Shown: piece after piece, positions 4,273-62,233 of the stretch | Layout: each line of letters starts with the position of its first letter | Numbering within the stretch: position 1 is the stretch's first letter | Assembly (NCBI RefSeq): GCF_000372725.1 | Contig: NW_005201286.1 | Coordinates: 124,001-188,000 of the forward strand | DNA length: 64,000 bases | DNA from: Emiliania huxleyi CCMP1516 | Taxonomy: Eukaryota | Reading direction: 5' to 3' | Notes under the pieces: generated by a model | What the model was told of the DNA's origin: nothing | Seen by the model: the letters and a program-made list of their open reading frames with translations, nothing else | The model's database searches: none | Made by a program: the position numbers and the translations under genes

Positions 4273-5543
4273 ATAAAAGATCAAGAATTCTTTCCCTTCT
4301 TTTTCCCCGCCTCCCAACGGGATCCTCGTAGGAGCCTAGAAATCCGTTGCCACACGCGCTCGAACACCCTTGAACCCAGTTGAGTTTCCAGCGCAGCACA
4401 CGAGCACCAGGCCCTCCAAGTCGGCGGTGGCCTGTGCTTGGGCGAGGTCCATGAACGTATTCTTGCATTTTTGCTCCCGGCTAAGGGAGCAAGCAAGCCC
4501 ACTCAACCCCAAGTACTCACCGTTTTACAGTGGTGTTTTTGTCGCAGAGGCTGCAGCCTCTGCTGGGGCGGAATGCGCGGGGTTTTCGGCGCGATGCCCT
4601 CGGCGAGTACACGCTACAGCTGTGCCGCACGCTCTCCTGCGCGCGCGTGACGTGTGGGACGCGTGCGCTGCGCTCAAACGTCGCGATTTGGCAATAGGCG
4701 CTCGAGCCGGCGCACAGCGGGCGATTGCGCCGCGCAGGGGGGGTCGGAGGGGTGCGAGAGGGGGCGTGGGTCGGGCGCGCACCGGCTGGCTCCGGGAGCG
4801 GCCGTCACGTCGAGGAGTGGGGCTGTCGGCGGCTCGAGCGCCGAGGCGTGCCGCTCTGCTGCGCCGCCGACAGCCCCTCTTCCGAGCCGGCGCGTGGAGG
4901 CGAGCCGCGGCCGGTGTCGCTGGTGCGGGGGCGGCGCAGCGTTTATCCCCCCCCCCCCCCGCGCCCGCCCGCCCGCCCGCCCGCCCTCAGGCCTTGCCCC
5001 TCCGCAGGCGCGGGAGCGCTCGCCGGCGAGCACCTCCTACCTCTCGTCGCCCGGCTGCTCCCTTCCCCCGTCACCCGCCGCGCCCTCGCCCGGCCGCCTC
5101 ACCGCGCACGGAGCGCTCGGCTGCTCGCCGCCGCCGCCGCGCGTCCCGCGCCGCCACGCTTGCCCCCTCTCCTGACGCGCACCCCGCGCAGACGGCGCTC
5201 CGGGATAGACGGAGCAGCGACCGCGCGCGCGGTCGCTGCTCCGCCCCTCCGTCGCGCGCGCCGCGCGCGCGCGCTCTGCCGCCGCTGCCGCCGCGCCCCC
5301 CTCGCCGTCTGTTTCCCGCCGTACTCGAGTATGGTGTGCGGTGCGCGCACGCGCAGCGCGCACACAGCAGCACCTCCCCACACCCCACCCACCCCGTCGC
5401 GCCGCCGCCGCCGCCCCCGCCGCCGCCGCCGCCCCCGCTGTAGCGTTTGGGGGGGCGACTGGCGACGACGGCAAAAATGCAAGCCCCGCCCCTGGCCACT
5501 GTTAAAGAAAAGCACCCCGGATAAAAAACTCGGCGAAACAAAC

Positions 5544-7228
5544 ATGTCCGACCTCGGAAAGCTGCCTGGCGTCGCCGAGGCGACCTCGACCACTGAGGAG
5601 CCCAAGCCGATGTACCACAGGGACCCTTCGGACTGGGACCGGCCTGCGGTCCCGGTCACCAAGGCGTACAAGAACGAGGCGTTCCTCTCCTCCTCGCACG
5701 CGCGGCACCTGCGCATCCTGTGCGAGTACGAGGAGACGATGCAGCGGCTCCGCGCCAACGGCATACGCGCCACAATAATGTTCTTCGGCTCCGCCCGCTC
5801 CAAGGACCGCGCTCAGTACGACGACGCCCTCGCCAAGAGCCGGAAGGCGGTGGCGGAGGCGCCCGACGGGTCAAGCGAGCAGGCGCTCGCACGCGGGACG
5901 CTCGAGCGGCTGCAAAAGTCAGAGTGGATGTGCGAGTACATGGAGAAGATCCGGCAGCTCGCGCAGCGCGTGACGGAGTGGTCGATCAAGACAAAGTACT
6001 CGCTCGCCAACCAGGTCTCGGGCGTCTCGCGCGCGACCACGGCGCGGCTGATCGAGGAGGGGCGCAAGTCGCCAGCCGGGGGGCGCAAGTCAGCCTACCT
6101 GCCGCACTCGACCGACGACGCCTACCCGCGCCCGGCGGACGCGCCCGGCATCTACGTGTGTACCGGTGGCGGGCCGGGCTTCATGGAGGCGGCCAACCGC
6201 GGCGCGCATGACGCGGGCGGCAAGTCGGTCGGGATGGGGATCACGCTGCCGTTCGAGACGGGGCTCAACCCGTACGTCACGCCGGAGCTGGCCTTCGAGT
6301 TCCACTACTTCTTCACGCGCAAGTTCTCGATGGCCTACCACATGCAGGCGCTCGTGGTTGCGCCCGGCGGCTTTGGCACCTTCGACGAGCTCTTCGAGCT
6401 GATGACGCTCAAGCAGACCGGCAAGATGCAGTCGGGGCTGCCGGTGGTGCTCTTCGGAAAGCAGTTCTGGCAGGAGGTGGTCAACTGGCAGGCGCCGCGC
6501 AGAGATGCGCAGAGATGCGCAGAGATGCGCAGAGATGCGCAGAGATGCGCAGAGATGCGCAGAGAGCTGGCGAGCCCTGCTTCCCTGTCGAAAGCCCTCG
6601 CCTCGCCTCTCGACCGAGGACTCGACGCAAAAGGAGGAGGTGCCGAGTTGAGTGCCCGTCAGGCGCTCGCCGTCGGAACATCTCGCAACCTCTCGCCATC
6701 TCTCGCCACCTCTCCCCACCTCTCCCCACCTCTCGCCACCTCTCGCCACCTCTCGCCACCTCTCGCCACCTCTCGCCGTATCTCGTCAGGCGCTCGCCGA
6801 CTCGGGCACCATCAACCAGCGCGACGTCGACGAGCTGCTCTTCACCGACGACGTGGACGAGGCCTTCGCGTTCCTGACCTCGCACCTGCAGGCCAAAAGA
6901 GAGAAGACACGTCGCGACGAGCCCCCCCCCCCCACCGAGGCTAGAGACAGGACCCACTTGTCACCGGCCGATGGGTCTGCCCCCCCGCCGCCACTCGCCC
7001 TGCCAAGGGAAGCACGCCGAGACCGCACACGCACGCACGCACACGTGCACCGGACGACCCTGCACCGTTCAATGCCACGGGGCGTGGAGACGCGCCGGCG
7101 CCGGCCGCACTAGCGTGGGGAGGAGGTTGGCTCACCGCACTGTCCTTCCCCCGCAGGCGACCTCGACGCCCCACTTTGCAGAGTGCGGGCTGCCGCCCGG
7201 CATGGACCTGAGGCACACGACTAGCTGA
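5544..7228 (+). CDS. LOG-family (TIGR00730-like) nucleotide phosphoribohydrolase; predicted exons 5544-6491, 6790-6891, 7157-7228
   Basis: FFGSAR, TGGGPGFMEAANRGA, FHYFFTRK and PGGFGTFDE motifs; two predicted GC-AG introns restore the frame. Confidence 0.9.
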
Positions 7229-12360: not shown

Positions 12361-14264
12361 TCATGCGGAACGCGGTGCGTCTGGCGGCGCCACCACCCTT
12401 GGCAGCACAAAGCCGCGCCAGAGGTCCGCCAGCTCCGGAGCCGCTCCCTCGCGGCTGTCGAAGCGCTCCTCGTCCCACGCGATCAGGTAGCCCAGCCGCA
12501 TCACCGCGACCGCCCGCTTGCGGGCCGCCTCCGGGAAGAGCTCGTGGGACTGCGGCGACCACTCCGCCGCCTTGAGGATGAGCCTGCCCACCTCCACTGC
12601 CGCGGCCGCTGGCTCCAGGTTGGCCGGCCTGAGGGAGGGCAGAGGCGTGGGGTGTCGAGAGAGAGAGCATCCGGCGAGTGGGGAAGAGACCATGGCGCGC
12701 CTCAGTGCGAGGGCCTTGGCCTCGCCCGCCACGCGCACGCCGAAGCGTCCCGTCGAAGCGCTCGCGGAGACGACGACGCCGACCTTGCCGTTCAGCGAGG
12801 GCCGCGAGACGAGAGAGTGGATCGCGACTGTGGAACCGACAGCCGCAGCTGTCGGATCCGACTCGCTCCACGAGCAGAGGACGCGCGCCCGCTCGAGGGC
12901 CGAAGGCTCGCCGGCTGAAGAGTCCGCGTCGCCGCGCAGCAGCGCCCGCGCCCGGTCGACGGTGAGCGCCTGCGGGAGGAGGGACAGTGAGCGTGAGGAC
13001 AATGCACTCACGCTACTTCAGCCGCTAGTCTCGGGCATGCCTCGAGGTGCTGGAGCGGCGTCCAGCCGCGGCTGGCGACCAGCCAAGCGGCGAGGTCGGC
13101 GTGGCCTTGGAAGTTCGCGAGCTCCTCGAGCGTTCCGGCGGGCGTTGCGGCGCGGGAGGCGCCGTAGGAGGAGAGGAGCTTGGCGACCTCGAGGTGGCCC
13201 TGGTGGCACGCAGCGAGCAGCGGCGTGACGCCGTTGTTGCGGGCTTGGCTGACCGTCGCATTGGCCTCTAGAAGCAGCCGGACGATCTCGACGTGGCCAA
13301 ACTGGCATGCGATGGACAGCGGCGTGACGCCATTCTCCTCGGCCTGGTTGATTGCCGCGTCAGCCTCGAGAAGCAGCTGGGCGATCTCGAGCTGGCCCTT
13401 CTCGCACGCGATGTATAGAGGCGTGGAGCCGTTCTCCTTGGCTTGGTTGACCGAAGCGCTGGCCTCGAGGAGCAGCTGGGTGATCTCGACGCGCCCCTGC
13501 AGGCATGCCACGAGCAGCGGCGTGACGCCGCCATCCATGAATTGGCCGACCGCTGCGCCAGCAACGCACAGTAGACGGACGATCTCGAGGTGGCCTTGCT
13601 GGCACGCGCTGAGCAGCGGCGTGAAGCCGTTGTTCGTCGCTTGGTCGATCGCCGCGTTGGCCTCGAGGAGCAGCTTGACGATCTCGAGGTGGTTGTTCTG
13701 GCACGCGATGAGCAGCGGTGTGACGCCGTCGTTGCGGGCTTGGCCGACCGCCGCGCCAGCCTCGAGAAGCAGCCGGACGATGTCAACGTGCCCCTGCTGG
13801 CACGCCATGAGCAGCGGCGTGCCGCCTTGCTTCTCGGCTTGCTTGACCGCCGCGCCCGCCTTGAGGAGCAGCCGGACGATGTCGACGTGGCCCTTCTGGC
13901 ACGCCATGATCAGCGGCGTGAAGCCATCGTGCAGGGAATGGTTGACCGCCGCGCCAGCCTGCTGGAGCAGCCGGACGCACTCGAGGTGGCCCTTCTGGCA
14001 CGCGATGTACAGCGCGGAAGCGCCGCCGCCAGTCGTCCCCCCAGCGCTCGCGCCGGCTTCGAGCAGCAGCCGCACCGCCTCGGCCTGCCCGTGACGAGCG
14101 GCCCAGGTGAGCAGCGTGTCTTGCTTCTCGGTCTTGAGCCGCGCGTCGAGCTGGGCCGTGAGCGACGTGCCGCGCGTCCCCCAACCGGATAGGACGGCGC
14201 GCAGCGAGCCCAGGTTTCCCACCGCCAGATCGGGGAGCAGAGTTGGGCTCGCGCCGCCGCTCAT
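12361..14264 (-). CDS. Ankyrin-repeat protein (~11 repeats) with an SH3-like C-terminal module; predicted exons 14264-13041, 12969-12701, 12628-12361
   Basis: GxTPLxxACxxGHxEIVxLLL repeats; after splicing, VAIHSL...LNGKVG...GRFGVRV...LRPANL; two ~70-bp GC-AG introns. Confidence 0.85.
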
Positions 14265-14461
14265 GCCGGGGAGGCGGAGATTCAAAACAAAAAAATACGC
14301 GGGAGAAAAAAAGTGTGAAGGTCAATCCTGAGACGCCTCACTACTCGGCGCCTCCCTTCCGCACCTTTTTGCAGTCCTCTGGTGAGTCCTCAGCCTCGAC
14401 CGCACCTGCATCCTCCCGCGTCGGTGCAAAGCACGCGTGCTACAGCCGGCGATGACCCGCC

Positions 14462-17377
14462 ATGACGTTGGCAAACTCACTCGCTCTTACGCTGCTGGCG
14501 GCGGCTGGCTCTTCCTCGGCGCCGCGCCTCGCCCCGCTCGCGCTCCTCCTGCTGGCGGGTCGCTGCGAGGCCGCGGGCACGATATGCGACAACAGCGTGC
14601 CATGCTTCTCCGGCTGCCCCACCGGCGTGTATGGCACGTCGCTGTGCGACGGCAACTACACGGGCACCACAGTGGGTCTGTCCAACCAAGGGCTCTCGGG
14701 GACGATCCCTCCGCAACTGGGTGACATCTCGCAGCTGCAGAGGCTTGGTCTGTCCGGCAACTCCATCTCGGGCACCATCCCTCCGGAGACGAGCAAGCTC
14801 TCGCAGCTGGAGTGGCTTAACCTGTTCAGCAACTCCATCTCGGGCACCATCCCTCCGGAGACGGGCACGCAGCTGCAGTTCCTTCGGCTGGGCAGCAACT
14901 CCATCTCGGGCACCATCCCTCCGGAGACGAGCAAGCTCTCGCAGTTGACGTACCTTGGTCTGAGCAGCACGTCCATCTCGGGCACCATCCCTGCGCAGCT
15001 GGGCAGTCTCGCCTCCCTTGCGGCGCTATACTTGTTCAACAACAAACTCGAGTACCCGCGCAGTAGTGAGGCCCGGGTCGAGTACGATCTTGCCACCCGC
15101 ATCTGCCGCGGCGTAGGAAGTGCCACGTGCCTCGGCGTCCCTCCTTGGAGCTGCAGCGCGTTTGCCGACGCGCAGCTATCTGTAACCGACCCCAACGAGT
15201 GCGTGGTCTGCGACAACCAGACTGCAAGCCTCATCATCCTCGGCGTCTGCATTCTTGTCGGCATCGTCGCCCTCGCCGCCTTCGTCCGCTTAGTCGTCCG
15301 CAACCCCTGGGCCCTCAAGCGGTGGGTCTCCTCCGCCGCGATCCTCTTCAACCACGCCCAGACGGCCAGCATCATCGCAAGCATGCGTCTCGAGTGGCCC
15401 CGCTCCCTCATCGCAATCGCCTCCGCGCTCAAGCTCGACCTGCTCATGCTGCCCAGCGCCAGCTGCCTTGTTGGGGGAGAGGATTTGTTCGAGGGGTACA
15501 CGATCTCGGCGTTTGATTCGTACACGTTCTACGCCTCCTTTGCCGTGCTTGTTTTGCTGCTCGCGCCCCTCCTCGTCAAGTACTTCGCCCTCTACCGCCG
15601 CCGGCTCGCCATCGCCGACACGGCGGAGCTCGTGCTGAGCCTGATCTACTCGCTGCTCTTCACCTTTGCATGGAGTCTCGTGCTCGATTACTTGGCCTAC
15701 GTGGTTGGCTATTTAGCGTCTATTGGCGTGGATGGGTATACATTCGACGTGTCGCAAAAGGGGTTCGAAAGCACGATGCCGGTGGCGGTGCTGGGTGCGC
15801 TGCTGCTGGTCCTCTTGCTCCGCTTCTCTGGCAACGTCCGCGCCTTCAAGCGCGGCGTCAAAAGTGGAGTGTGGCGGCGCCCGAACTCGTGCGGAGGCTC
15901 TGCCTGCTGCGGCACACGCCCCATTCCTCCCCGCCGGCTCGAGCGGCATGTCGCTTTCCTCGTTGGCCGCTTCGCTCGCCACGCTCCCCGCTGGCAGGTC
16001 GTCATCTGGCTTCGGCAGTTCATTCTCCTCCTCCTCGCCTTCGCCAGCAACGTCCTCTTTTATGCGACCACAGACAAGACCTTCAACGCCGGCCGCTACG
16101 CCATCGCCGCCCTCGCGATCGCCGTCACGCTCGTCTTTTGGCGCCTCCAGTGCCGCGCCCTGCCCTTCGCCTTCCGCTTCCAGAACGCGCTCGAGTCGTG
16201 TCTGTACGGTACCACCGCTCTCTTCCTCGCCCTCGCCATGGTTTACACCGCGCTCCCCGCCGACCCTGCCGCTGCGCGAGTGAGCAAGGCGCTCATGGCG
16301 ATCGTGCTTCTCAGCAGTCTCATCGTCGGCGCCGTCTACTCGATCCGCGAGCTGCGGCGGATGCGGCGCGCGCTCGCTGACGTCGACCTCTCCGCCATCC
16401 TCAGCGCCGCCGACTCCAAGATCGACGGCTCGCTCGCAGATCGGCTGCGCGACGGCTCGGTGCGGCTGCTCCGCTGCAGCTGGCTGGCGTCGCCCGCCTC
16501 CGACGCTTTCCTCGGCCGCGACGCCTCTGGCGCCGTCATCATGAAGAGGCAGCAGGACATGCCGGCAGAAGCGTTTGTGCCTTGCGATGAGGCGGTGGCG
16601 ATGCTGGAGCGAGGCGACCGGTCTATCCTAGCGCTCTCGTACGGCTGGCTGACGGTGTTTCACCCGGACCCTCGCGGCACTACCCTCGCCGCCGTCCGCC
16701 GCTTCCTCGATGCCGACGCGGCGGCCAGCGACACCGGGCTCTTCTGGGACTTTTGCAGCCTTCCGCAAAAGGGCCCAAACGGGGAGGAGAAGAGCGAGGA
16801 GGAGAAGGCCATGTTCGGGCGAGGCCTCAAAGTGATGGGGAATTTCTACGCCAGCGTCACGGGCACCTCCGTCATCCAGCAGCGCAACATCGACCTCCCG
16901 CCAGGCGCGACCACCGGGTTCGGACCGGGAGAGTACAACCCAACGCCGTACGAGGGCGATGGTGGCCGCGGCTGGTGCATCTTCGAGCAGGGGACCGCAA
17001 TGACGGTGCTGGCGCACCTGACGGCGGCGGAGAGGCAGGCGGAGGAGGAGGGCAAGGCGCTGCCAGAGCGCTTCCGCCGCGCGCAGGCGAGCCGCGCCAA
17101 GGTGTATGACATCGGAGGGGAGGCGCCGGTGGCGCGCGAGTGCTCTCTGCCGCCAAAGAAGGTGCTCGACGAGGCGTGCCGCGCGATCGAGAAGGCGCGC
17201 TTCACGGGCAAGGCGGACCAGGTGATGGTGCCGCAGATGCTGGCCGAGTTCGAGTGGACTTTCCGGAGCACGTTTGAGCAGGCGCTCGAGGACTATGCGA
17301 CGAGCGGCGCGACGATTGGGCGGAAGGAGCAGGAGGCGATGCAGCAGGAAACGCCGGTACGTCTGGCTGAGTGCTGA
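14462..17377 (+). CDS. Receptor-like protein: signal peptide, plant-type LRRs, multipass TM region, cytoplasmic HET/TIR-like domain
   Basis: 971-aa open frame; LxxLxLxxNxISGTIP repeats; at least 7 hydrophobic segments; LSYGW, LFWDFCSLPQ, MGNFYAS and RGWCIFE motifs. Confidence 0.9.
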   Translation: MTLANSLALTLLAAAGSSSAPRLAPLALLLLAGRCEAAGTICDNSVPCFSGCPTGVYGTSLCDGNYTGTTVGLSNQGLSGTIPPQLGDISQLQRLGLSGNSISGTIPPETSKLSQLEWLNLFSNSISGTIPPETGTQLQFLRLGSNSISGTIPPETSKLSQLTYLGLSSTSISGTIPAQLGSLASLAALYLFNNKLEYPRSSEARVEYDLATRICRGVGSATCLGVPPWSCSAFADAQLSVTDPNECVVCDNQTASLIILGVCILVGIVALAAFVRLVVRNPWALKRWVSSAAILFNHAQTASIIASMRLEWPRSLIAIASALKLDLLMLPSASCLVGGEDLFEGYTISAFDSYTFYASFAVLVLLLAPLLVKYFALYRRRLAIADTAELVLSLIYSLLFTFAWSLVLDYLAYVVGYLASIGVDGYTFDVSQKGFESTMPVAVLGALLLVLLLRFSGNVRAFKRGVKSGVWRRPNSCGGSACCGTRPIPPRRLERHVAFLVGRFARHAPRWQVVIWLRQFILLLLAFASNVLFYATTDKTFNAGRYAIAALAIAVTLVFWRLQCRALPFAFRFQNALESCLYGTTALFLALAMVYTALPADPAAARVSKALMAIVLLSSLIVGAVYSIRELRRMRRALADVDLSAILSAADSKIDGSLADRLRDGSVRLLRCSWLASPASDAFLGRDASGAVIMKRQQDMPAEAFVPCDEAVAMLERGDRSILALSYGWLTVFHPDPRGTTLAAVRRFLDADAAASDTGLFWDFCSLPQKGPNGEEKSEEEKAMFGRGLKVMGNFYASVTGTSVIQQRNIDLPPGATTGFGPGEYNPTPYEGDGGRGWCIFEQGTAMTVLAHLTAAERQAEEEGKALPERFRRAQASRAKVYDIGGEAPVARECSLPPKKVLDEACRAIEKARFTGKADQVMVPQMLAEFEWTFRSTFEQALEDYATSGATIGRKEQEAMQQETPVRLAEC

Positions 17378-20931: not shown

Positions 20932-21880
20932 AAGGCACGGATGGCTGCGGTTCGGGGTGGGGTTGGGTTGGGCTGTCTGCTAGCCTATCGGTGCCAGCCT
21001 ATCGGTGCCGCGTAAAAAAAGAATTCAAAAATCGCGGCACAGCGGACGGTGCGGGGCGTGCCGCAGGTTGGAGGACGCCGTCACCGACGAGCGCGTTGGA
21101 GTATCCACTCCGGAGGGCTTTCAACGGGCTCGTCGGTGGCGGCTTCCCTGAACCTGCGCCGCGCTCGGCGAACCTCGACAGCGCCTTCCCCCTTCTTGTA
21201 TGCTTTGCACATGCGACAGCCTGTCGGCGCTGCTGACCGTGCCATGATGCACAATTGATCACCTGCATAGCTCGCGGCCTTAGTATCAAGCATTCACAGT
21301 GACGACCTGATCGTACGGCCAGTAGGAAGGTGTCCTTCCATCGTGTGCACGCTTCTGGCGCAATGAGCGCGTCGCCTCGGATTGGCTGCTGGCCCTCTCG
21401 AGGCTATGCCTACACAGCCTCGCGCGCATGGGACCACGCACCTTCTCAGGAGTCAGGACAGCGCCGGTGCCTCTCTCTTGGACCGGCAAACGTGGTGGTC
21501 TCGTGTCACCAATGTGGGACCAGTCAGTGCGGCATCGCGCCATCGACAGCTCTGAACTGCGCCTCACCACTGACCGGGAAGGCCGCCAAGTGGGCCAGCA
21601 CTGTCGCACATTGTGGCAGCAGTCAGCAGTGCATGTCTGATAGCTAGAGCAGCAGCGTCAGGGTCGCAGGGTCGGATCGTGTCAAGCCTCTCGCCCGGCC
21701 GGCCGCGTGCAGACGTCGGGGCACCTGTCTGCTGTCTGCTGCCTGGAGTGATCCACCCCGGCAGAGGGAATGGATCCACCAGCGAGTGCATGGGTGAAAA
21801 GTTGAAATACGTGATTTCTATGCTATCAAAAAGTCTTAGAGACAGGTACCGACGTCTCGGAACCGGGCCGGCCCCGCTTC

Positions 21881-22321
21881 TCACAGCGCATTCTGCTCCT
21901 CGAGGATCTTGACCATGTCGTCGAGCGGCGGGTCCCACGTCGACGCGATGCCCTTCTCCTTGTTGAAGTAGTAAGTGTCTCCCGAGGCGGGGTCCTGCGC
22001 GCAGCCCCAGCCGTCGGGAAGGTTGCCCGCCTCCGCCGCTTTTCGAGCCATTGCGACGTACCGAGTGCGTTTCGTCGCCTTGTCAAAGGCCTCTGGGTCT
22101 CGCCGCGCCGCCTGCATGTCCTTCATCGCCTGCCACTGCGCCTCCTTGGCCGCTTCCCGCTCCTTGGCCGCCTTTTGGAAGCCGTCAAACAGGCCGGCGT
22201 TCACGGCTGCGCGGGGCCGGCGGCAGCTGTGGCGAGCGGCGGGCGTGGCGAGCGAGAACGCCTCGGACCCGCGAATCAGGCTCGCGCACGCAGCGAACAG
22301 TACGAGCGCTTTGGCCAGCAT
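21881..22321 (-). CDS. Small WW-domain protein with a probable bipartite plastid-targeting presequence
   Basis: MLAKALVLFAACASLIRGSEA|FSLA signal peptide plus transit-like region; LPDGW...DPASGDTYYFN...STWDPP WW domain. Confidence 0.8.
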   Translation of the reverse strand: MLAKALVLFAACASLIRGSEAFSLATPAARHSCRRPRAAVNAGLFDGFQKAAKEREAAKEAQWQAMKDMQAARRDPEAFDKATKRTRYVAMARKAAEAGNLPDGWGCAQDPASGDTYYFNKEKGIASTWDPPLDDMVKILEEQNAL

Positions 22322-22480
22322 GCTTCGCCTGCGGGGGCGGCGGCCGCGAGGGTCAGGTCTGGGACACAACACGGAGCAGCTCGAGGCTTCGCCGCGATCC
22401 TGCACACCCTGGTGCCTTCGCAAAAAAGAAGAAAAATCGGCGGGTTTTCTCATTCTTGGCATGCGGCACGCCGGCACACG

Positions 22481-25058
22481 ATGAGCAGCACGACGCACAC
22501 CGTCGCGGCGAGCGGCGGGCCGCAGGAGGTCCGCCTGGGCGAGGACGTGATGACGGTCCTGCCACTCGGCAGCGGCTGCGAGGTCGGCCGCTCTGCCGTC
22601 GTGGTCAAATTCAAGGGCTCGACCGTCATGTTTGACTGCGGCGTGCACCCGGGCCGCACCGGCTACGACGCGCTGCCCTTCTTCGACGAGATCGACCCGA
22701 CGGAGGTGGACCTGCTGCTGGTGACCCACTTCCACATGGACCACTGCGGCGCGCTCCCATTCTTCCTGCAAAAGACGGGCTTCGGCGGCCGCACCTTCAT
22801 GACGCACCCGACCAAGGCGGTGTGCAAGCTGCTGCTGCACGACTCGGTCAAGATCGGGCACGACGACGGCCGCATGTGGGACGAGGCCGACCTCGTCGCC
22901 GCCATGGACCGCATCGAGCTCATCAACTACCACCAGGCCGCCGTGCACTAGTGCCTCCCTTGGACACTCTGGTGGACACACCGTGGCGCCTCTTCGAGAC
23001 TCTGAACTCTCTCTCAGAGGCGGACACTAGTGCCACACTCGTAGGCACTCTGTGCGAGACGGCCGCCTGGGGGCACCGCCTCGGGTGCTGACTCCTAATC
23101 TAGCACCGACTCCAATGTAGCACCGACTCTGGCACAGATACGCAGGTGCTCTCGCACAAGTGCATCGGGAACCCTCCCCTACCAGCCCGGTACCCTACCC
23201 CCCCCTACCCCACCAGGTGCTCTCGCACAAGGGCATCCGGTTCTGGTGCTACAACGCGGGCCACGTGCTCGGCGCGGCTATGTTCATGATCGAGGTTGGT
23301 AATAATAATAATATAATAATAATAATAATAATAATAAGCGGCCATGTTCATGATCGAGGTTGGCGGCGTGCGCGTCCTCTACACCGGCGACTTCTCGCGC
23401 CAGCCCGACCGGCACCTGCTCGGCGACTTCCTAGACACTTCCGAGACACTTCGAACACTTCCGAGACACTTCCTAAACACTCCCTAGACACTTCCGAGAC
23501 ACTCCCGAGACACTTCAGAGACACTCCTGAGACACTTCCGAGACACTTCCGAGACACCCCCGAGACACCCCCGAGACACTTCCTAGCCCGGCCGCCGCTC
23601 GCTCGGCGTCGAGACGCCGACACATCCACCGCCCTTGCTTGGGCCGTCCGCGAACCCTGTCGGAACCTTCCTCCCGGTACCGTCCGGTCTGCGCACGTTC
23701 CGCGAACCTTCCGCGACCCTTCCGCGACCCTTCCGCGACCCTTCCGCGACCCTTCCGCGACCCTTCCGCGACCCTTCCGAGAACCTTCCGAGACCCTTCC
23801 GAGACCCTTCCGCGACCCTTCCGCGACCCTTCCCGCGGCAGGTGCCGAGACGCCGACGGACCCGCCGCATGTGCTCATCGTCGAGTCGACGTACGGGGTG
23901 TGCTGTCGCCTAGACACTTCCGAGACACTTCCTAGAGTCGACGTACGGGGTGTGCTGTCGCACGCGCGAGCTGCGAGAGCTGCGCTCGCCTAGGAGGTGT
24001 CTCGGAGGTGTCTCGGAAGTGTCTAGGTGATGTCGCACGAGCCGCGCGAGCTGCGAGAGCTGCGCTTCACCGCCGCCGTGCACGCGATCTTGCAGCGCGG
24101 TGGAAAGTGCCTCATCCCGGTCTTTGCGCTGGGGCGGTCGCAGGAGCTGCTGCTCATCCTCGACGCCTACTGGCGCGATCACCCCGAGCTGCACAAGGTG
24201 CCTCTGTACTATGCGTCTGGCATCGCCAAGCGCTGCATGCGCATCTACCAGACGTACATCAACATGATGAACGAGAACATCCGCGACGCACACGCGACGG
24301 GCCGCAACCCGTGGGAGTTTGAGTTTGTGCGCAACTTGCCCTCGTCTGCCCAGTTCAACGACTCGCAGCCGATGGTCGTGATGGCGTCGCCAGGCATGCT
24401 GCAGCAAGGCCTGTCTCGGGAGCTCTTTGAGCTTTGGTGCTCCGACCGGCGGAACGGGCTCGTAATGCCGGGCTACTCCGTCGTCGGCACGCTGGCCAAC
24501 CACCTCCTCTCCGAGCCAAAAGAGATCCAGACGAGCGGCGGCGACTGGGTCGCCGTCAACCTCACCATCACCTACGTGTCCTTCTCTGCGCACTCCGACT
24601 TTACGCAGACGTCCGAGTTCATCTCCGCCACGCGGCCACGCCACGTCATCCACGTGCACGGCGGCGAGGAGGAGATGAAGCGCCTCGCCCGCGCGCTCGC
24701 CAAGCAGTACAGCCCGAAGGAGGTCGAGTTCCTGACGCCTCAGAACTGCCAGCCCGTGCAGCTTCGCTTCCCGGGAGAGAAGATTGCGCGTGTCGTCGGC
24801 TCGCTGGCGGAGGAGGAGCCGTCGGACGGCGCGCCGCTCGAGGCGCTTCTCCTGCTCAAGGAGAACAAGTACACCCTGCTCGCCCCCGCGGACCTCCACA
24901 CGGCCACCGACCTCGCGACCACGCGGCTGCTGCAGCGGCCCCGCTTCCGGTTCGAGCGGCCGCCCGCCGCGCTCCTCTCGGCCGTCGGTCGTATCTTTGA
25001 GGTGGGGCCGCCGCAGCCAGCCCTGCTCCTCGCGGAGGGGGGAGGAGGCGGAGGTGGA

Positions 25059-25093
<35 letters not shown>

Positions 25094-25643
25094 AGAAGGA
25101 GGAGGAGGCGGCGGTGGTGGCGGAGGCGGGGCTGTCGAGACGGGAGGGGAGCAGGCGGGGGAGGAGGCGGCAGAGGAGGGCGGGCCTTCGGCGTTGGCAC
25201 GCCGGTGGCTGGTGCAGGGGCTGGTGGCGGTGGAGGTGTCGCCGGCGAGCAGCCTGGCGGTGCTGGAGTGGGAGGCGGACCCGATCGCCGACACAGTCGC
25301 TGACGCGGTGTCGGCGCTGCTGCTGCAGCTGCAGGCCCAGCAGTTGCCCGAGGTGGCGGCGGCGGAGGAGCCCGCGGGAGGCGGCGGCGGCGGCGAGGGA
25401 GGCGGCGGCGGCGCAGGGGGCGGGCTCGACTTCGCCTTGCGGGTGCTCGCAGAGCAGTTTGGCGCGGTGGAGGAGGAGGAGGCGGGCGGGGCAAGGCGGC
25501 TGCAGGTCGCCGGCCACGCTGTCCGGCTGCACGGCGCGTCGCTGCCGTTCGAGCGCATCGAGAGCGAGAGTGAGTTCGCGCTGCAGCGCGTGCGCGACGT
25601 GCTCGCGCGGGCGCTGGACGCTTGCCGGCCCGTGGCGGCGTGA
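22481..25643 (+). CDS. CPSF3: Cleavage and polyadenylation specificity factor 73 kDa subunit (MBL/beta-CASP endonuclease); predicted exons 22481-22936, 23217-23294, 23359-23422, 23842-23897, 24027-25643
   Basis: [65 protein letters not shown] and SFSAHSD motifs; C-terminal W...P.ADTVADAV motif. Confidence 0.95.
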
Positions 25644-43420: not shown

Positions 43421-45583
43421 CTAGACGATCTCGGGAAAAGCTGGTAAGCTCACATACCGTTTTGTGCGTTTTACACACCCGGGGAGGGCGGGGGGACCCG
43501 GGGGACGAGGGCCGAGGCGGGCCCTCCCGAGGGGGCAGAGCGCCCTCTGTATAGCGCGCCCACCTACGGAAAGCCGTGTAGCCCGTTGGGCGTTGGGCCG
43601 TTGCAGAGAGCACACACCCGGCAGACACCGTGTGGAACGGTACCGCGCAACGCACACACGCGTGAGGGGATGTCTCATCTGTCGAGTGGTCCTCTGGGTC
43701 CATACACAGTAGACAATACACTGTTCGAAACTGTGTGGCGCTGGCCACGACCCCCAAGGCCCTGCCCAGCCGAGCGCGATCAAGCCCGCGCCTGCTGCCA
43801 CTCCCGGACCATCCGGCGCCTCGCCCGTCATCGGGCTCGTCGACTTGGTCGCGAGCCAGCGCTCGATCGCCGACCGCTCGTACGAATGCCCGTCCGCCGC
43901 CATCACCGGGTCACTCATGAGCTCGGTCGTGATCGGGCAGATGAAGTCGGCCGGCGGCTCCTCCTCCCTCGGAGCCGGCGCCTCTGCAGCCGAGGACGGC
44001 CCTTGCGCCTCCGCCGCCCGCCTCCCCTGCCTCCTCCAGCCTCGCGCTCTCCTCGAGCGCAGCTCCGCCTCCTCCGCCGCCGCCTTGGGCTCTTGCGACG
44101 GCCCAGCACCGCCCCCGCCGCCCTTCTTCTTGCCCTTCTTCTTGCCCTTCTTGCTCTCCTTGGCGCGCTTCTCCGCCACCTCCTCCGCCAGCAGCTCCTC
44201 TGCGTGCCGCACCGCATCTGCCTCCCGCGCCGCCGCAGCCTCCTCGGCGGCCCTCTCGGCCTCCACCCTCTCGGCCGCCGCCCTCTCGGCCACTGCCCTC
44301 TCCACCCTCGCCTCAATCTCCGCTCTCTTCGCCTCCCTCGCCGCCGCCTCAAGGGCGCACACGCACTCGGTGTGGCCGTTCTCCTTGGCCCACTGCAGCG
44401 CCGTACGCCCGGCCGAGGTGCGCGCCGCTGTGTCAGCGCCCGCCCGCAGCAGGCAGAGCACGACGGCGGGGTGGCCATGGTAGCACGCAATGTGCAGCGG
44501 CGTGAAGCCGTCCTCCTCGGCCTGGTCGACCGCCGCGCTGGCTCCGACAAGCAGCCGGACGATGTCGACGTGGCCCTCCTGGCACGCGACGTACAGCGGC
44601 GTGGCGCCACGGCCTGTGGCGTGGTCGACCGCCGCGCCGGCCTCGAGAAGCAGCCGGGCGATCTCGAGGTGTCCCTTCTGGCACGCCATGAACAGCGGCG
44701 TGAAGCCGTCCGCAGTGTCTGCTTGGTTGACCGCCGCGCTGGCAGCGACAAGCAGCATGGCGATCTCGAGGTGGCCCTTGTAACACGCGACGTACAGCGG
44801 CGTGGCGCCGTCGTCCTTGGCTTGGTTGACCGCCGCGCCGGCCTCGAGGAGTAGCCGGACGCACTCGAGGCGGCCCTCCTCGCACGCGATGTACAGCGGC
44901 GTGAAGCCGCGGCCTGTGGCGTGGTCGACCGCCGCGCCGGCCTCGAGGATCAGCCGGGAGATCTCGAGGTGGCCCTCCTGGCATGCGGCGGACAGCGGCG
45001 TGAAACCGCCGTCCTCGGCTTGGTCGACCGCTGCGCTAGCCTCGAGGAGCAGCCGCGCGATCTCGAGGTGGCCCTTCTGGCACGCCATATACAGCGGCGT
45101 GGTGCCGTCGTTCCTGGCTCTTGGTCGACCGCCGCGCTGGCCTCGAGGAGCAGCCGGACGCACTCGAGGTGGCCTTCCTGGCACGCGATGAGCAGCGGCG
45201 TGAAGCCACTCTGCTTGGCTTGGTTGACCGCCGCGCTGGCAGCGACAAGCAGCATGGCGATCTCGAGGTGGCCCTTGTAACACGCCACGTACACGGTACA
45301 GCGGCGTGGCGCCGTTGACGTTGGCTTGGCTGACCGCCGTGCCGGCCTCGAGGAGCAGCTGGGCGCACTCGAGGCGGCCGTTCCAGCACGCGATGGACAG
45401 CGGCGTCCAGCCGTCCCCCTTGGCCTGGTCGACCGCCGCGCAAGCATTGACAAGCAGCCGGGCGATCTCGAGGTGGCCCTTCTGGCACGCGACGTACAGC
45501 GGGGAGAGGTGCGTGGAATCAGATGTGCAGGGCGAGACTCGATCGATCGACGCACCACGCCGGCCGGCCGGAGGGAGACTCAC
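43421..45583 (-). pseudogene. Ankyrin-repeat plus U-box protein with two compensating frameshifts and an apparently truncated U-box
   Basis: ~11 ankyrin repeats; [34 protein letters not shown]...SPMTGE; indels at ~45295 and ~45120. Start and end uncertain. Confidence 0.75.
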
Positions 45584-45948
45584 AAACGCGTCGCACTACG
45601 TACGCGGCGCTACCTCCATCGATCGATCGACCCCGGCCGCGAGCGCACCTACACATGCATGCCAAGAGGGGAAGAAGATCTCTCTCACACACACATGCCA
45701 GGGAGGGACGGATTTAGATACCAGGACTAGCCCCCTCCCCCCCTTGGCTGTTTCCGGTCTGCGTGTCGGCCCTTGTTTTCTTCCTCCCGGTGCTTGATTT
45801 CTTCTACTCTCGTGAGCTGTGAACAGACGCAAGTAAACCCGCTAGATTTCTTCCACCCCCGCCCTTTTGGCTCACCGGCTCACCGGCCGCTGCAGGGGGC
45901 CTGCGCTAAAAAAGGGCTGCTGCCAGATCGTACTCGAGGGTGCTGGCC

Positions 45949-60286: not shown

Positions 60287-62233
60287 CTATGAGCGCTGGG
60301 CCGCCTCCGCCGCCATCCTGGCTGCCGCTGCCTTGGCCCTCGCCGTCGCCACCGACGCGCGCCTCGCCTTGGCGGCGGCGATTGCGGCCTCCATCGCCGC
60401 CTCCTCCGCCGCCAACGCAGCCTCTTCCTCCGCCGCGGCCTCCTCCGCCGCCTCCGCCGCCGCACTCCAACGCGCGGCCTCGGCCGCCTCGGCCTCGCGC
60501 GCCGCCGCAGCCTGCCCCTCCGCCGTCTCCTCCTCGCTCGCCTCGCTCGCCGCCTCGGCCGCCGCCTCGGCCGCCGCCTCGGCCGCCGCCTCGGCCGCCT
60601 CCTCCGCCTCCGCCTCCTCCTCCGCCTCGTCCGCCGCAGCGTCCAAGCGCGCAGCTTCGGCCACCTCTGCCGACGCCGCTGCCTGGCTCTCCGGCGTGAT
60701 GCCGAACCGGATCCTCTCCTCGGTGAGCGTCTCGAGAAGCAGGAGAAGCCTCGCCTCCTCGGCCTTCTTCGCCGCCTCGGCTGCGTCTGCCTCCGACGGC
60801 GCCTCGGCACCCTCCTCGGGCTCCTGCGACGAACCCGCCCCGCCCGCCCCGCCGCCCTGCTTCTTCTTCTTCTTGCCCTTCTTCCCCTTAGCGCGCTTCT
60901 CCGCCTCGACCTCCGCCAGCAGCTCCTCGGCGTGCCGCGCCGCCTCCTTCTCCTCTGCCGCCCTCTGCGCCGCCCTCTCCGCCGCTCCCGCGGCCCACGC
61001 CGCCTCCGCCGCAGCCTTCTCCGCCGCCTCCGCAGCCTTCTTCGCTGCCTCCGCCGCCGCCTTCTCCGCTGCCGCATGCTCCTCGAGGGCACGCACGCAC
61101 TTGGCGTGGCCCTCCCCCTTGGCCCACTGCAGCGCCGTCTTGCCGTACTCATCGCGCAACGTCATGTCTGCGCCGTGCCGCAACGCCAACTCGACCAGCT
61201 TCTCGAAGCCGCACGAGGCGGCGATACTCAGCGCGGTGCTGCCGCCTCTGGTCTGCAACGAGACATCCGCACCGCGCTGGAGCAGCGCCTCGGCCAGCCC
61301 CTCGCGGCCGTAGGCCATCGCGATCATCAGCAGCGTCATGCCGCTAAAAGAGCCGTCCGAAAAGGCGCACACGAACCTCTCGTCGACCCGCCCGTCGCCG
61401 TCGAGCCACGTCAGCACCGCCTCCTCGTCGCCTCGCTGAGCCGCTTGCACAACCTCTTCTGTCGGCTCGGCCTCCTTGCCACCCTCGCCGCTCGAAGCAG
61501 AGGCCGCGGCACTCGCACCCACCGCCGCGTCTCCGCCGCCTGCCTCGGCCGACGGCGCCTTGCTCCGGACCGCCGCCACCGCCCCGAGGTACGTCCTGAA
61601 GGCCTCGACGCACTCAGCGAGGCCCCTCTCCTTGGCCCACTGCAGCGCCGTCTTGCCGTACGCATCGCGCAACGTCATGTCCGCGCCCGCCCGCAGCAAG
61701 CGCAGCACGACGGCGGGGCGGTTGAAGTAGGCGGCGTGCATCAGCGCGGTGCCACCGTTCTCGTCTTGCTGGTCGATGTCCGCGCCACGCCGCAGCAGCA
61801 GGTCGACCACCCGCTCTTTGCCGCCCTGGGCAGCCGCTGTCAGCGTCGTCCCGATCTCCGCGCCGTGCTGCAGCAGCACGTCCACCACCCGCTCGCGGCC
61901 ACAGTTGGCTGCAGCGTTGAGCGCTGTGGTGCCGAGACTGTTCTGCAGGTTGATGTCTGCGCCACGCTTCAGGAGGAGCTCGACAGTCTGCACGTGCCCG
62001 TTCTGCGCGGAGAGGATGAGCAGGGTGCATGGAATTATCTTGCCGGCCTCAGAGGGTCCCTCAGCGAGAGTGTCCGCCTTCCCGCCTTCATTCAGCCACT
62101 GTCGCACCGGTCCCACGCGGCCGTCCGTAGCCGCCTTCAGGACGTTCTTTTGGACTTCACCACCCGGCGCGCTGCCAGCAGACGGCAGAGGCGTGCGGAG
62201 CACGGCGGAGGCGCGGAAGGGCGCGGCGGGCAT
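60287..62233 (-). CDS. Ankyrin-repeat protein with an Ala/Glu-rich coiled-coil tail
   Basis: Two ankyrin clusters, each ending ADMTLRDx[12 protein letters not shown]-rich tail. Confidence 0.88.
   Translation of the reverse strand: MPAAPFRASAVLRTPLPSAGSAPGGEVQKNVLKAATDGRVGPVRQWLNEGGKADTLAEGPSEAGKIIPCTLLILSAQNGHVQTVELLLKRGADINLQNSLGTTALNAAANCGRERVVDVLLQHGAEIGTTLTAAAQGGKERVVDLLLRRGADIDQQDENGGTALMHAAYFNRPAVVLRLLRAGADMTLRDAYGKTALQWAKERGLAECVEAFRTYLGAVAAVRSKAPSAEAGGGDAAVGASAAASASSGEGGKEAEPTEEVVQAAQRGDEEAVLTWLDGDGRVDERFVCAFSDGSFSGMTLLMIAMAYGREGLAEALLQRGADVSLQTRGGSTALSIAASCGFEKLVELALRHGADMTLRDEYGKTALQWAKGEGHAKCVRALEEHAAAEKAAAEAAKKAAEAAEKAAAEAAWAAGAAERAAQRAAEEKEAARHAEELLAEVEAEKRAKGKKGKKKKKQGGGAGGAGSSQEPEEGAEAPSEADAAEAAKKAEEARLLLLLETLTEERIRFGITPESQAAASAEVAEAARLDAAADEAEEEAEAEEAAEAAAEAAAEAAAEAASEASEEETAEGQAAAAREAEAAEAARWSAAAEAAEEAAAEEEAALAAEEAAMEAAIAAAKARRASVATARAKAAAARMAAEAAQRS

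What the first reader, a model, noticed from the sequence alone, without database searches (positions are those of the whole stretch)
14462..17377. LRR-multipass-membrane receptor fused to a HET/TIR-like domain: candidate algal immune or cell-death receptor
Seen: one 971-aa intronless ORF with a signal peptide, ~6 plant-style LRRs (xISGTIP), a Cys-rich juxtamembrane segment, at least 7 hydrophobic helices, then a C-terminal domain with ILALSYGW, HPDP, LFWDFCSLPQ, MGNFYAS and RGWCIFEQ. Known: these follow the order and spacing of the fungal HET domain motifs (LSYxWG, WxDxxCIxQ, MxxIY, RxWxxQE). HET is a TIR-related cell-death effector normally found on cytosolic NLR-like proteins. Inference: an extracellular sensor wired across a GPCR-like bundle directly to a putative NAD-consuming or death effector, with no kinase. 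This is a Toll-like logic in an architecture I do not recognise as characterised.
Basis: partly seen in the sequence, partly recalled or inferred. Interest (0 to 1): 0.85.

Follow-up and report, generated by a model that had tools for sequence, protein, structure and literature searches.

The report
Algal LRR receptor with HET-like domain
A haptophyte-type alga carries one gene for a membrane protein with leucine-rich repeats predicted to face outward, nine predicted membrane helices and an inner domain that appears distantly related to the fungal HET cell-death domain, so it likely works as a surface immune-type receptor of a design not yet described.

Summary
Window 14462-17377 (+) is one 971-codon ORF with a signal-peptide-like start, five full xSGTIP plant-type LRRs plus a partial sixth, a module of five conserved cysteines, nine (not seven) conserved hydrophobic helices, and a 330-residue C-terminal domain.

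That domain belongs to a very large unnamed protist family (1859 representative clusters). Pfam's HET and TIR models hit none of the 96 family proteins scanned.

A profile-profile comparison with 13 verified HET domains aligns all four motif blocks in order. It scores 27.6 (P 0.003), against at most 16.9 for 60 shuffled, one reversed and seven unrelated-pair controls.

W838 and E842 form a WxxxE motif at a helix start, conserved in 140 and 142 of 144 copies. In seven relatives the domain sits N-terminal to NACHT, the effector position of NLRs.

Charge alternation across the loops places the domain in the cytosol. Transcriptome-derived homologues carry all parts on one mRNA.

The "GPCR-like" reading is unsupported, and function is untested. 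The scan has flagged related families in dinoflagellates before.

The parts
14462..17377 (+). Whole ORF, 971 codons plus stop, with no interruption.
   Evidence: Transcriptome-derived homologues are collinear with it.
14462..14575 (+). Signal-peptide-like N-terminus (aa 1-38), with a hydrophobic core at aa 23-33.
   Evidence: hydropathy only; no dedicated predictor was available.
14576..15085 (+). Cys-containing N-cap and plant-type LRR ectodomain (aa 39-208): five xSGTIP repeats plus a partial sixth.
   Evidence: Pfam LRR_1, LRR_8 and LRR_4 above their cut-offs. Repeat positions.
15086..15223 (+). Juxtamembrane module with five conserved cysteines (aa 209-254; C215, C223, C231, C247, C250).
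   Evidence: Conserved in 9 of 9 to 10 of 10 full-length homologues.
15224..16357 (+). Membrane region (aa 255-632) with nine conserved hydrophobic segments, at about aa 255-277, 315-337, 355-377, 388-410, 435-455, 513-535, 543-564, 576-598 and 610-630.
   Evidence: Hydropathy of the protein and of 10 aligned homologues. No Pfam family matches it.
15827..15997 (+). Strongly basic loop between helices 5 and 6 (aa 456-512; 14 K+R, 1 D+E). It anchors the cytosolic side.
   Evidence: Homologue-averaged net charge is +8.2.
16358..16585 (+). Basic stop-transfer stretch, a long helix that follows the last membrane helix, and a small N-terminal extension of the domain (aa 633-708).
   Evidence: Model 1: helix at domain residues 4-25, pLDDT 90-98.
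16586..17314 (+). Alpha/beta core of the HET-like, TIR-like domain (aa 709-951).
   Evidence: Model 2: pLDDT 95.6, pTM 0.92. Structural neighbours. hhalign to HET.
16625..16648 (+). Block 1, ILALSYGW (first strand of the core). Aligns with HET ALSYxWG.
   Evidence: S726 is S in 148 of 163 copies and W729 is W in 159 of 164.
16661..16672 (+). HPDP motif in the loop after the first strand. It is specific to this family and has no HET counterpart.
   Evidence: D736 is D in 154 of 164 copies (the other 10 are E), and G739 is G in 163 of 166.
16739..16768 (+). Block 2, LFWDFCSLPQ. Aligns with HET LWIDAxCINQ.
   Evidence: D763 is D in 143 of 161 copies and Q769 is Q in 142 of 150.
16835..16855 (+). 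Block 3, MGNFYAS. Aligns with HET M..IY..A.
   Evidence: M792 is M in 146 of 156 copies, Y796 is Y in 150 of 156 and S798 is S in 152 of 155.
16967..16990 (+). Block 4, RGWCIFEQ: a WxxxE motif at the start of the long helix after the third strand. E842 is the candidate catalytic residue. Aligns with HET RxWxxQE.
   Evidence: mact 0.1 alignment. The helix starts at core residue 129. W838 is W in 140 of 144 copies and E842 is E in 142 of 144.

Best explanation
The 971-codon ORF encodes one protein with a signal-peptide-like start, plant-type LRRs, a five-cysteine module, nine predicted membrane helices and a 330-residue C-terminal domain that is predicted to lie in the cytosol and is likely a remote relative of the fungal HET (TIR-like) cell-death domain.

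Shown directly:
- the ORF and its parts;
- membership of the domain in a very large unnamed protist family;
- a collinear four-block profile match to verified HET domains;
- near-invariance of D736, W838 and E842;
- the position of the same domain N-terminal to NACHT(-LRR) in relatives.

Inferred mechanism:
1. The LRR ectodomain would bind an external ligand, such as a microbial, viral or algal surface molecule.
2. The signal would pass through the nine-helix bundle and the helix that follows the last membrane segment, probably by clustering or a change of conformation.
3. This would switch on the cytosolic domain.
4. By analogy with TIR and nucleoside-deoxyribosyltransferase folds, the domain would use Glu842 (in W838-x3-E842) to cleave the N-glycosidic bond of NAD+ or a related nucleotide. 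That would either make a signalling nucleotide or deplete the substrate, and so start a defence or cell-death programme without a kinase.
For: Architecture.

One mRNA: the MMETSP transcript P0004 (82% identity) spans aa 308-952. The Haptolina brevifila transcript P0016 is collinear from the LRRs through the Cys module and membrane region into the domain.

Topology: there are nine conserved hydrophobic segments. Homologue-averaged loop charges alternate in sign at every loop: -2.6, +1.9, -2.0, +0.7, -0.5, +8.2, -0.5, +1.2, -1.4, +1.5. The domain lies four helices after the +8.2 loop, so it is on the same side.

Family size: 1859 representative clusters at E<=1e-3.

HET link:
- 15 of 15 bacterial ORFs fetched by motif are Pfam HET at 50-117 bits.
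- hhalign of the family (48 sequences) against 13 of them gives P 0.0022, score 30.4 over blocks 1-3.
- With the family alignment trimmed, the score is 27.6 (P 0.0032), and at mact 0.1 the alignment runs through RGWcxFE / RvWviQE.
- Controls: 60 column shuffles have mean 12.2, sd 2.0, max 16.9, and the reversed profile scores 16.4. Seven pairings of either profile with TIR_2, NACHT, TM-module or LRR profiles score 10.2-16.2.
- The family HMM ranks 9 HET sequences above the first TIR among 13 HET + 18 TIR sequences.

Fold:
- Models have pLDDT 92.9 and 95.6.
- For the core model, 8 of the 10 best of 48,161 chains are TIR, SEFIR-complex or nucleoside deoxyribosyltransferase. The other two are unannotated structural-genomics proteins.

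Active-site-like conservation: E842 in 142 of 144 copies, W838 in 140 of 144, D736 in 154 of 164. E842 lies in the first turns of the helix after the third strand.

Context: the domain is N-terminal to NACHT in P0037, P0107, P0157, P0175, P0176, P0180 and P0181. NACHT is above the Pfam cut-off in P0175 and P0180. P0176 and P0180 also have LRR_6 repeats.

Literature (passages read): HET homologues exist in Haptophyceae, and HET is remotely TIR-like (PMC4986451).
Against: - Pfam HET and TIR models match none of the 96 family proteins scanned: the window's own (whole and C-terminal part) at E<=10, 52 at E<=0.01, 32 more at E<=10 and 11 more at E<=10.
- hhalign's own probability is only 10-13%.
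- Foldseek gives no match at E<=1e-3 in the PDB (two models) or in BFVD.
- PDB sequence and profile searches find nothing.
- The family against a TIR_2 profile is not significant (score 15.8, P 0.12). The same set-up also fails on the published HET-TIR link (15.0, P 0.19), so it is uninformative.
- There is no evidence of catalysis, of ligand binding or of regulation by infection. The nearest CCMP1516 paralogue is absent from the infection table of PMC12489294.
- The family is also fused to kinase, PDZ, MORN, EF-hand and PP2A-B56 modules. That fits general signalling as well as immunity.
- Topology rests on hydropathy and the positive-inside rule only, and the second segment is weakly hydrophobic (1.43-1.57).
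Confidence: 0.5

Rival explanations
1. The architecture and the HET/TIR-superfamily fold are as described, but the domain is a non-catalytic assembly or adaptor module, like the TIR domains of animal Toll-like receptors. It would signal by recruiting other copies of the same domain, for instance the many soluble family members.
For: The family is huge and includes many short soluble members and tandem double copies. That would suit homotypic recruitment. Dyrka et al. proposed such an adaptor role for HET (PMC4986451, passages). From memory, not tested here: animal TLR TIR domains keep a similar W-C-x-x-E stretch without known NADase activity.
Against: D736, W838, E842 and K880 are nearly invariant across very divergent copies. 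That pattern is more typical of an active site than of an interface. The closest folds include true enzymes.
Confidence: 0.2
2. The protein is a receptor for something other than pathogens, such as mating or cell-cell recognition, or sensing of nutrients or the environment. The domain would be a general signalling output of haptophytes and alveolates, not an immune or death effector.
For: The domain is fused to kinases, PDZ, MORN, EF-hand and PP2A-B56 modules. No infection-linked expression was found for this gene or its nearest annotated paralogue.
Against: Seven relatives place the domain in the effector position of NACHT proteins, two of them with C-terminal LRRs. One relative (P0037) also has TCAD9 and a near-threshold NUDIX hit. 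Pfam-HET transmembrane genes of the same alga respond to virus infection or resistance (PMC12489294, Table S2 rows).
Confidence: 0.2
3. The resemblance to HET and TIR is coincidental. The domain is an unrelated alpha/beta enzyme or binding module whose short motifs happen to fall in the same order.
Against: All four blocks align collinearly, at about 7.7 sd above 60 shuffles and above all seven unrelated-family pairings. The top structural neighbours are consistently TIR, SEFIR or deoxyribosyltransferase in two independent searches. The NLR context is shared with HET and TIR.
Confidence: 0.08
4. The ORF is a gene-model artefact: two genes or a pseudogene read as one frame in GC-rich DNA.
For: GC-rich DNA gives many long spurious frames: 96 stop-free frames of at least 220 codons in the window. 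No single RNA contig spans the ORF.
Against: Homologues from transcriptomes and other assemblies are collinear over all parts. Every part is conserved at the protein level. RNA-library contigs cover most of the ORF without canonical splice joints.
Confidence: 0.02

Closest known systems
Fungal HET domain (Pfam PF06985; HET-E/D/R, TOL, HET-6, BH1)
   Same: All four conserved blocks align in the same order: ALSYxWG, WxDxxCIxQ, M..IY..A and RxWxxQE. Relatives carry the domain in the N-terminal effector position of NACHT proteins. The size is similar: a 2025 review gives HET as about 220-240 aa (PMC12881547, passages).
   Different: The domain is below detection by the Pfam model in all 96 family proteins scanned. 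The block-2 Cys is mostly replaced (SLPQ in place of CINQ). There is an extra, nearly invariant HPDPxG loop. There is also an added N-terminal helix and long C-terminal helices. Here the domain sits at the C-terminus of a multi-pass membrane receptor, in an alga.
TIR domains (bacterial SpbK and ThsB, SARM1, plant TNL TIRs, MyD88/TIRAP)
   Different: There is no Pfam TIR match, and Foldseek is silent. A 29-residue loop precedes the Glu helix, and in paralogues this loop holds an RRM-like insert. The domain is about twice the length of a TIR. No NADase activity has been shown.
Toll-like receptors
   Same: The same logic: LRR sensor outside, TIR-superfamily module inside, no kinase.
   Different: TLRs cross the membrane once; this protein is predicted to cross nine times. 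Its LRRs are of the plant xSGxIP type. The inner domain is HET-like rather than a canonical TIR. This is most likely an independent assembly of parts.
Plant LRR receptor kinases and receptor-like proteins
   Same: A 24-residue plant-specific LRR consensus with xSGTIP, with Cys-containing caps on both sides of the repeats.
   Different: It has no kinase, and nine membrane segments instead of one. A distant relative of the membrane module (P0186) does carry a kinase instead of this domain.
Transmembrane Pfam-HET and membrane TIR genes of Gephyrocapsa (Emiliania) huxleyi in PMC12489294
   Same: The alga is closely related. Four of the five Pfam-HET genes in Table S2 are flagged transmembrane, and one has a C-type lectin domain. 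The text describes TIR proteins with an extracellular region or several membrane helices, induced early in infection.
   Different: Those genes are detectable by the Pfam HET or TIR models. The authors state that their TIR genes carry no LRR or NBS. The HET genes are not discussed in the main text ('HET' as a whole word occurs 0 times). The family described here is invisible to those models.
Nucleoside 2-deoxyribosyltransferase and related N-glycosidases (1f8x, MilB, LOG)
   Different: There is no sequence relationship, and residue equivalence could not be checked.

Membership tests
Pfam HET (PF06985) | Match to the family HMM at or above the gathering score (22.5 bits). | tested here: not met
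   No HET hit for the window's protein or its C-terminal part at E<=10, for 52 members at E<=0.01, for 33 members at E<=10 or for 10 more at E<=10. Positive control: 15 of 15 bacterial HET ORFs score 50-117 bits.
Pfam HET (PF06985) | Four conserved blocks in order: ALSYxWG, WxDxxCIxQ, M..IY..A, RxWxxQE. | tested here: met
   hhalign aligns LSYGW, LFWDFxSLPQ, M..YAS and RGWcxFE to these blocks collinearly. The blocks themselves were defined from 13 verified HET domains. The block-2 Cys is not conserved in this family.
Pfam HET (PF06985) | Profile-profile similarity above background. | tested here: met
   Score 27.6, P 0.0032. Controls: 60 shuffles with max 16.9, reversed profile 16.4, unrelated real families 10.2-16.2. 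Caveat: the hhalign probability is 10-13%, the HET set is small and bacterial only, and the HET loci were picked by a block-2 motif.
Pfam HET (PF06985) | Occurs as the N-terminal effector of NACHT/STAND proteins. | tested here: met
   This holds for relatives, not for this protein. In P0037, P0107, P0157, P0175, P0176, P0180 and P0181 the domain lies N-terminal to NACHT.
Pfam HET (PF06985) | Expression of the domain induces cell death. | not testable with these tools
   This needs expression of aa 633-971 in a host cell.
TIR superfamily | Match to a Pfam TIR model or to the sequence of a solved TIR. | tested here: not met
   No TIR family appears. No PDB chain is found by sequence or by profile.
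TIR superfamily | Flavodoxin-like alpha/beta core that superposes on solved TIR domains. | tested here: inconclusive
TIR superfamily | Conserved Glu in the helix after the third strand (the catalytic Glu of NADase TIRs). | tested here: inconclusive
   E842 sits in the first turns of that helix and is E in 142 of 144 copies. It aligns with the near-invariant Glu of 18 TIR_2 domains only in a non-significant local alignment (P 0.12). A residue-level structural superposition was not available.
TIR superfamily | NAD+ (or nucleic acid) cleaving activity. | not testable with these tools
   This needs a biochemical assay.
Toll-like receptor / plant LRR-RLK type receptors | Extracellular LRR domain followed by a single membrane helix. 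| tested here: not met
   The LRRs are present, but nine conserved hydrophobic segments follow them.
7TM / GPCR families | Seven membrane helices and a match to a 7TM family. | tested here: not met
   There are nine segments. The window's protein matches no 7TM Pfam family at E<=10. Single weak 7tm_3 and Srh hits (E 0.06-0.12) occur in one member each of 33.

The most novel reading that the evidence does not exclude
This is the first example of an independently evolved 'Toll-like' receptor class of marine algae. An extracellular LRR sensor is wired through a nine-helix membrane module directly to a catalytic HET/TIR-superfamily domain, which makes or destroys a nucleotide signal. The same Pfam-invisible domain is the main effector head of haptophyte and alveolate NLRs. 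Together they would define a large, unexplored innate-immune and cell-death network in bloom-forming phytoplankton.
Probability: 0.3. Interest if true: 0.85.

Novelty: new variant of a known kind. Interest (0 to 1): 0.66.

Why it matters
Coccolithophore blooms end through viral and bacterial attack, yet the receptors and death effectors of these algae are almost unknown. A 2010 census even listed E. huxleyi as having no LRR receptors (PMC2939053, passage).

This gene shows a surface LRR receptor joined to a domain of the HET/TIR kind. That kind of domain drives cell death in fungi, and drives NAD-based immune signalling in plants, animals and bacteria.

The domain family is very large (1859 clusters at 50% identity) and escapes Pfam. 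Current annotation-based surveys of algal immunity therefore miss it.

How HET domains kill is still unknown (PMC10890737 and PMC12881547, passages). A compact, confidently modelled relative with one obvious Glu to mutate gives a direct test. It would also extend the link between fungal, plant, animal and bacterial death machinery to haptophytes and alveolates.

Tried and rejected
- Foldseek against the PDB with the whole domain and with the core, and against BFVD: no match at E<=1e-3.
- PDB sequence search with the single sequence and with the profile: only chance-level rows.
- Pfam HET, TIR or 7TM on the window's protein and its relatives: none.
- ESM Atlas. For the domain, only unnamed haptophyte and other clusters. 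For the membrane part, weak leads to TRP (PF06011) and Ephrin_rec_like clusters at 0.86-0.87, which I did not follow up.
- Relatives in IMG/VR viral contigs and in prokaryote genomes: pattern matches only, none confirmed.
- The window's own genome: not held.
- Paralogues in the window: none by tblastn.
- hhalign of the family against TIR_2: not significant. The same set-up also misses HET against TIR_2, so it decides nothing.
- Public reads. 14 runs hold at most 0.35 of the sampled words. Contigs from four runs cover the ORF in fragments. Three non-canonical 'skips' (AC..AG, CG..GC, GC..CC) are probably from paralogues or the repeated LRR units. No contig spans the gene, and strand and transcript ends are not visible. 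This neither proves nor disproves a single transcript, so I relied on transcriptome-derived homologues instead.
- EMIHUDRAFT_195665 in Table S2 of PMC12489294: absent.
- Self-association of the core by complex prediction: the tool's queue was full and nothing was folded.
- Earlier scan notes looked up by sequence: none.
- Literature searches for a description of this family or architecture found none. Subscription journals are not covered.
- Quick domain tree (the careful search did not finish). The window's copy lies in a supported clade (SH-aLRT 99) of LRR-membrane proteins. Four of the five NACHT-linked copies lie in another clade (SH-aLRT 91). The deeper order is unresolved and most rows are fragments of unknown architecture, so I draw no conclusion about domain shuffling.
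Full report
**What is there**

Window 14462-17377 on the + strand is a single ATG-to-stop frame of 971 codons. It lies in the longest stop-free frame of the 64-kb window.

The parts of the protein, from the N-terminus:

| Part | Residues | Evidence |
|---|---|---|
| Hydrophobic, signal-peptide-like core | 23-33 | |
| Cys-containing cap, five 22-24-residue xSGTIP repeats and a partial sixth | 39-208 | Pfam LRR_1 46.1 bits, LRR_8 45.7 bits; repeat positions |
| Five cysteines (C215, C223, C231, C247, C250) | 209-254 | conserved in 9 of 9 to 10 of 10 full-length homologues |
| Nine hydrophobic segments | 255-632 | conserved across 10 homologues |
| C-terminal domain | about 633-960 | |

The surrounding genes are ordinary nuclear genes: ankyrin-repeat proteins, a CPSF73-like gene, a glycosyltransferase and a LOG-like gene. 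There is no second copy of the domain in the window. No whole genome is held for this window. The exact protein is not in the public protein collection. The best relatives are unnamed assemblies at 90% identity in the domain and an Emiliania huxleyi CCMP1516 'hypothetical protein' at 62%.

**One gene, one transcript?**

Contigs from four public runs, two of them recorded as metatranscriptomes, cover most of the ORF in pieces. They show no canonical splice joints, but none spans the gene.

Transcriptome-derived homologues give better evidence:
- An MMETSP transcript product (P0004) is 82% identical over aa 308-952.
- A Haptolina brevifila transcript product (P0016) is collinear from the LRRs through the Cys module and the membrane region into the domain.

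I take the fused architecture as real.

**Topology**

The homologue-averaged net charge of the loops alternates in sign at every step: -2.6 (ectodomain side), +1.9, -2.0, +0.7, -0.5, +8.2, -0.5, +1.2, -1.4, +1.5.

The very basic loop at aa 456-512 (14 K+R against 1 D+E) should be cytosolic by the positive-inside rule. The C-terminal domain follows four helices later, so it is on the same side. The LRRs are on the other side.

This is an inference from hydropathy; no dedicated predictor was available. Nine segments and the absence of any 7TM family match give no support to the 'GPCR-like' label. Weak language-model leads to TRP-type membrane proteins were not followed up.

**The C-terminal domain is a big unnamed family**

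An exhaustive HMMER search with aa 640-971 finds 1859 representative clusters at E<=1e-3, 738 at E<=1e-10 and 80 at E<=1e-30. Named members come from these organisms:
- Emiliania huxleyi
- Chrysochromulina tobinii
- Haptolina brevifila
- Chromera velia
- Noctiluca scintillans

I found no relative in viral contigs or in prokaryote genomes. Pfam gives nothing for this domain in the window's protein or in the other members scanned.

Across all copies I hold, a handful of residues are almost invariant:

| Residue | Conserved in |
|---|---|
| S726 | 148 of 163 |
| W729 | 159 of 164 |
| D736 | 154 of 164 (the other 10 are Glu) |
| G739 | 163 of 166 |
| Q769 | 142 of 150 |
| Y796 | 150 of 156 |
| S798 | 152 of 155 |
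| G837 | 139 of 144 |
| W838 | 140 of 144 |
| E842 | 142 of 144 |
| K880 | 132 of 136 |

**Is it HET?**

By the family's own definition it is not, because the Pfam HET model never matches.

To test remote homology I fetched real HET domains. A degenerate DNA pattern for the recalled block-2 motif found 27 loci in prokaryote genomes. All 15 ORFs I tested are Pfam HET at 50-117 bits. Thirteen of them give an alignment with invariant ALSYxWG, WxDxxCIxQ, M..IY..A and RxWxxQE.

hhalign results:
- The algal family against this profile aligns LSYGW, LFWDFxSLPQ and M..YAS with the first three blocks (P 0.0022, score 30.4).
- With the family alignment trimmed, the score is 27.6 (P 0.0032). At a lower alignment threshold it runs on collinearly through RGWcxFE / RvWviQE.

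Controls under the same settings:

| Control | Score |
|---|---|
| 60 column-shuffled HET profiles | mean 12.2, sd 2.0, max 16.9 |
| Reversed HET profile | 16.4 |
| Either profile against TIR_2, NACHT, membrane-module or LRR profiles (seven pairings) | 10.2-16.2 |

The family HMM also ranks nine HET sequences above the first TIR sequence, though at trivial bit scores.

hhalign's own probability is only 10-13%. The HET set is small, bacterial, and chosen through block 2.

My reading is that this is a genuine but remote relative of HET, a sister family rather than a member.

**Is it TIR-like?**

AlphaFold2 models are very confident: pLDDT 92.9 for aa 640-971 and 95.6 for the core aa 709-951. The core is an alpha/beta sandwich. 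The strands are at ILALSY, LFW, TSVIQQ and KVYDI. A 29-residue loop precedes a long helix that begins at G837-W838, so E842 lies in its first turns.

Foldseek finds nothing in the PDB.

The independent aligner, run against 48,161 chains, puts the Bacillus SpbK TIR filament first for both models:

A nucleoside 2-deoxyribosyltransferase ties with it for the core. Of the ten best rows for the core, eight are TIR, a SEFIR-containing complex, or deoxyribosyltransferases. The other two are unannotated structural-genomics proteins. Further down come MyD88, TIRAP, MAL, SARM1, IL-1RAcP, Hydra TRR-2, TRIF, ThsB and MilB.

A profile comparison with 18 bacterial TIR_2 domains is not significant (P 0.12). 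Its best local stretch does put W838 and E842 on the TIR W and near-invariant Glu. The same set-up fails to see the published HET-TIR link, so it decides nothing.

From memory, not from a call: plant and animal TIR domains carry a W-C-x-x-E stretch at the same helix, and its Glu is the catalytic residue of NADase TIRs.

**Context in relatives**

The same domain lies N-terminal to a NACHT NTPase in seven proteins: P0037, P0107, P0157, P0175, P0176, P0180 and P0181. NACHT is above the Pfam cut-off in P0175 and P0180. P0176 and P0180 also have C-terminal LRR_6 repeats. This is the tripartite NLR layout in which HET and TIR occur in fungi and plants.

P0037 adds a TCAD9 domain and a near-threshold NUDIX hit.

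Other fusions are to kinases (often with two tandem copies of the domain), PDZ, MORN, EF-hand and PP2A-B56 modules. The membrane module recurs mostly with this domain, and once, distantly, with a kinase instead.

**What is known**

I read passages, not whole papers.
- Dyrka et al. 2014 (PMC4986451) found HET homologues in Haptophyceae and proposed that HET is remotely TIR-like.
- A 2024 paper and a 2025 review state that how HET kills is unknown, and that no structure or biochemistry is available.
- A 2025 study of G. huxleyi (PMC12489294) reports membrane-anchored TIR proteins induced early in infection. It states that its TIR genes have no LRR or NBS.
- Its Table S2 lists five Pfam-HET genes. 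Four are flagged transmembrane and one has a C-type lectin domain. Several change on infection or in resistant cells (only the returned rows were seen).
- A 2010 census reported no LRR receptors in E. huxleyi.
- My four searches found no description of this family or architecture.
- This scan has twice noted related unnamed HET-like families in dinoflagellates.

**Verdict**

The most likely reading (about 0.5) is a surface receptor whose cytosolic output is a HET/TIR-superfamily domain acting through Glu842. An immune or death role is suggested by the NLR context but is untested. Rivals are a non-catalytic adaptor, a non-immune signalling role, or a chance resemblance.

It is a new variant of a known kind, and of real interest for algal immunity and for the open question of what HET domains do.

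Noticed in passing
Relatives P0009, P0015, P0016, P0019, P0023, P0037, P0064, P0107, P0157, P0175, P0176 and P0180, at the family HMM position about 201-203.: Many paralogues carry an insert of roughly 50-150 residues in the loop just before the RGWxxFE helix. The insert gives weak RRM-type hits: RRM_1 at E 0.005 in P0023 and 0.009 in P0180, and RBD_RDR6 at E 0.002 in P0064. The window's copy has only the short 29-residue loop.
   Followed up: partly
P0165-P0173 (about 1800-2600 aa), including two Chrysochromulina tobinii 'kinase' proteins.: These proteins hold two tandem copies of the domain. In the second copy the blocks are spread far apart. Three also have LRRs and a C-terminal protein kinase.
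   Followed up: partly
P0037 (1682 aa).: One relative combines a near-threshold NUDIX hit (20.5 bits against a cut-off of 21.1), this domain, TCAD9 (47.7 bits, above its cut-off) and a NACHT-type NTPase. That hints at a link to ADP-ribose or nucleotide metabolism in a conflict-system setting.
   Followed up: no
L001, L002, L004, L005, L007, L008, L014, L017-L020 and L022-L026 (one Deltaproteobacteria MAG).: 16 of the 27 prokaryote loci that match the HET block-2 pattern come from a single deltaproteobacterial MAG. All 11 of its ORFs that I tested are Pfam HET. This is a large HET expansion in a bacterium.
   Followed up: partly
G002 (the genome holding L003, a Candidatus Accumulibacter MAG).: This genome has a Pfam HET gene and 20 TIR_2 matches, most of them on proteins of 400-1460 aa.
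   Followed up: no
window 13011-14321 (-), 43424-45595 (-), 60290-62506 (-).: There are three ankyrin-repeat genes in the 64-kb window. The first is divergently placed about 140-200 bases upstream of the receptor gene, and the second has a U-box.
   Followed up: no
window 4698-6941 (+) and 21815-25640 (+).: A LOG / 'possible lysine decarboxylase' (SLOG) domain gene, and a CPSF73-like gene split over at least two frames, presumably by introns.
   Followed up: no
PMC2939053 compared with window 14462-17377.: A 2010 census states that LRR-receptor genes are completely absent from Emiliania huxleyi. This gene and its CCMP1516 paralogue EMIHUDRAFT_195665 (LRRs, membrane region and domain) do not fit that statement.
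   Followed up: partly
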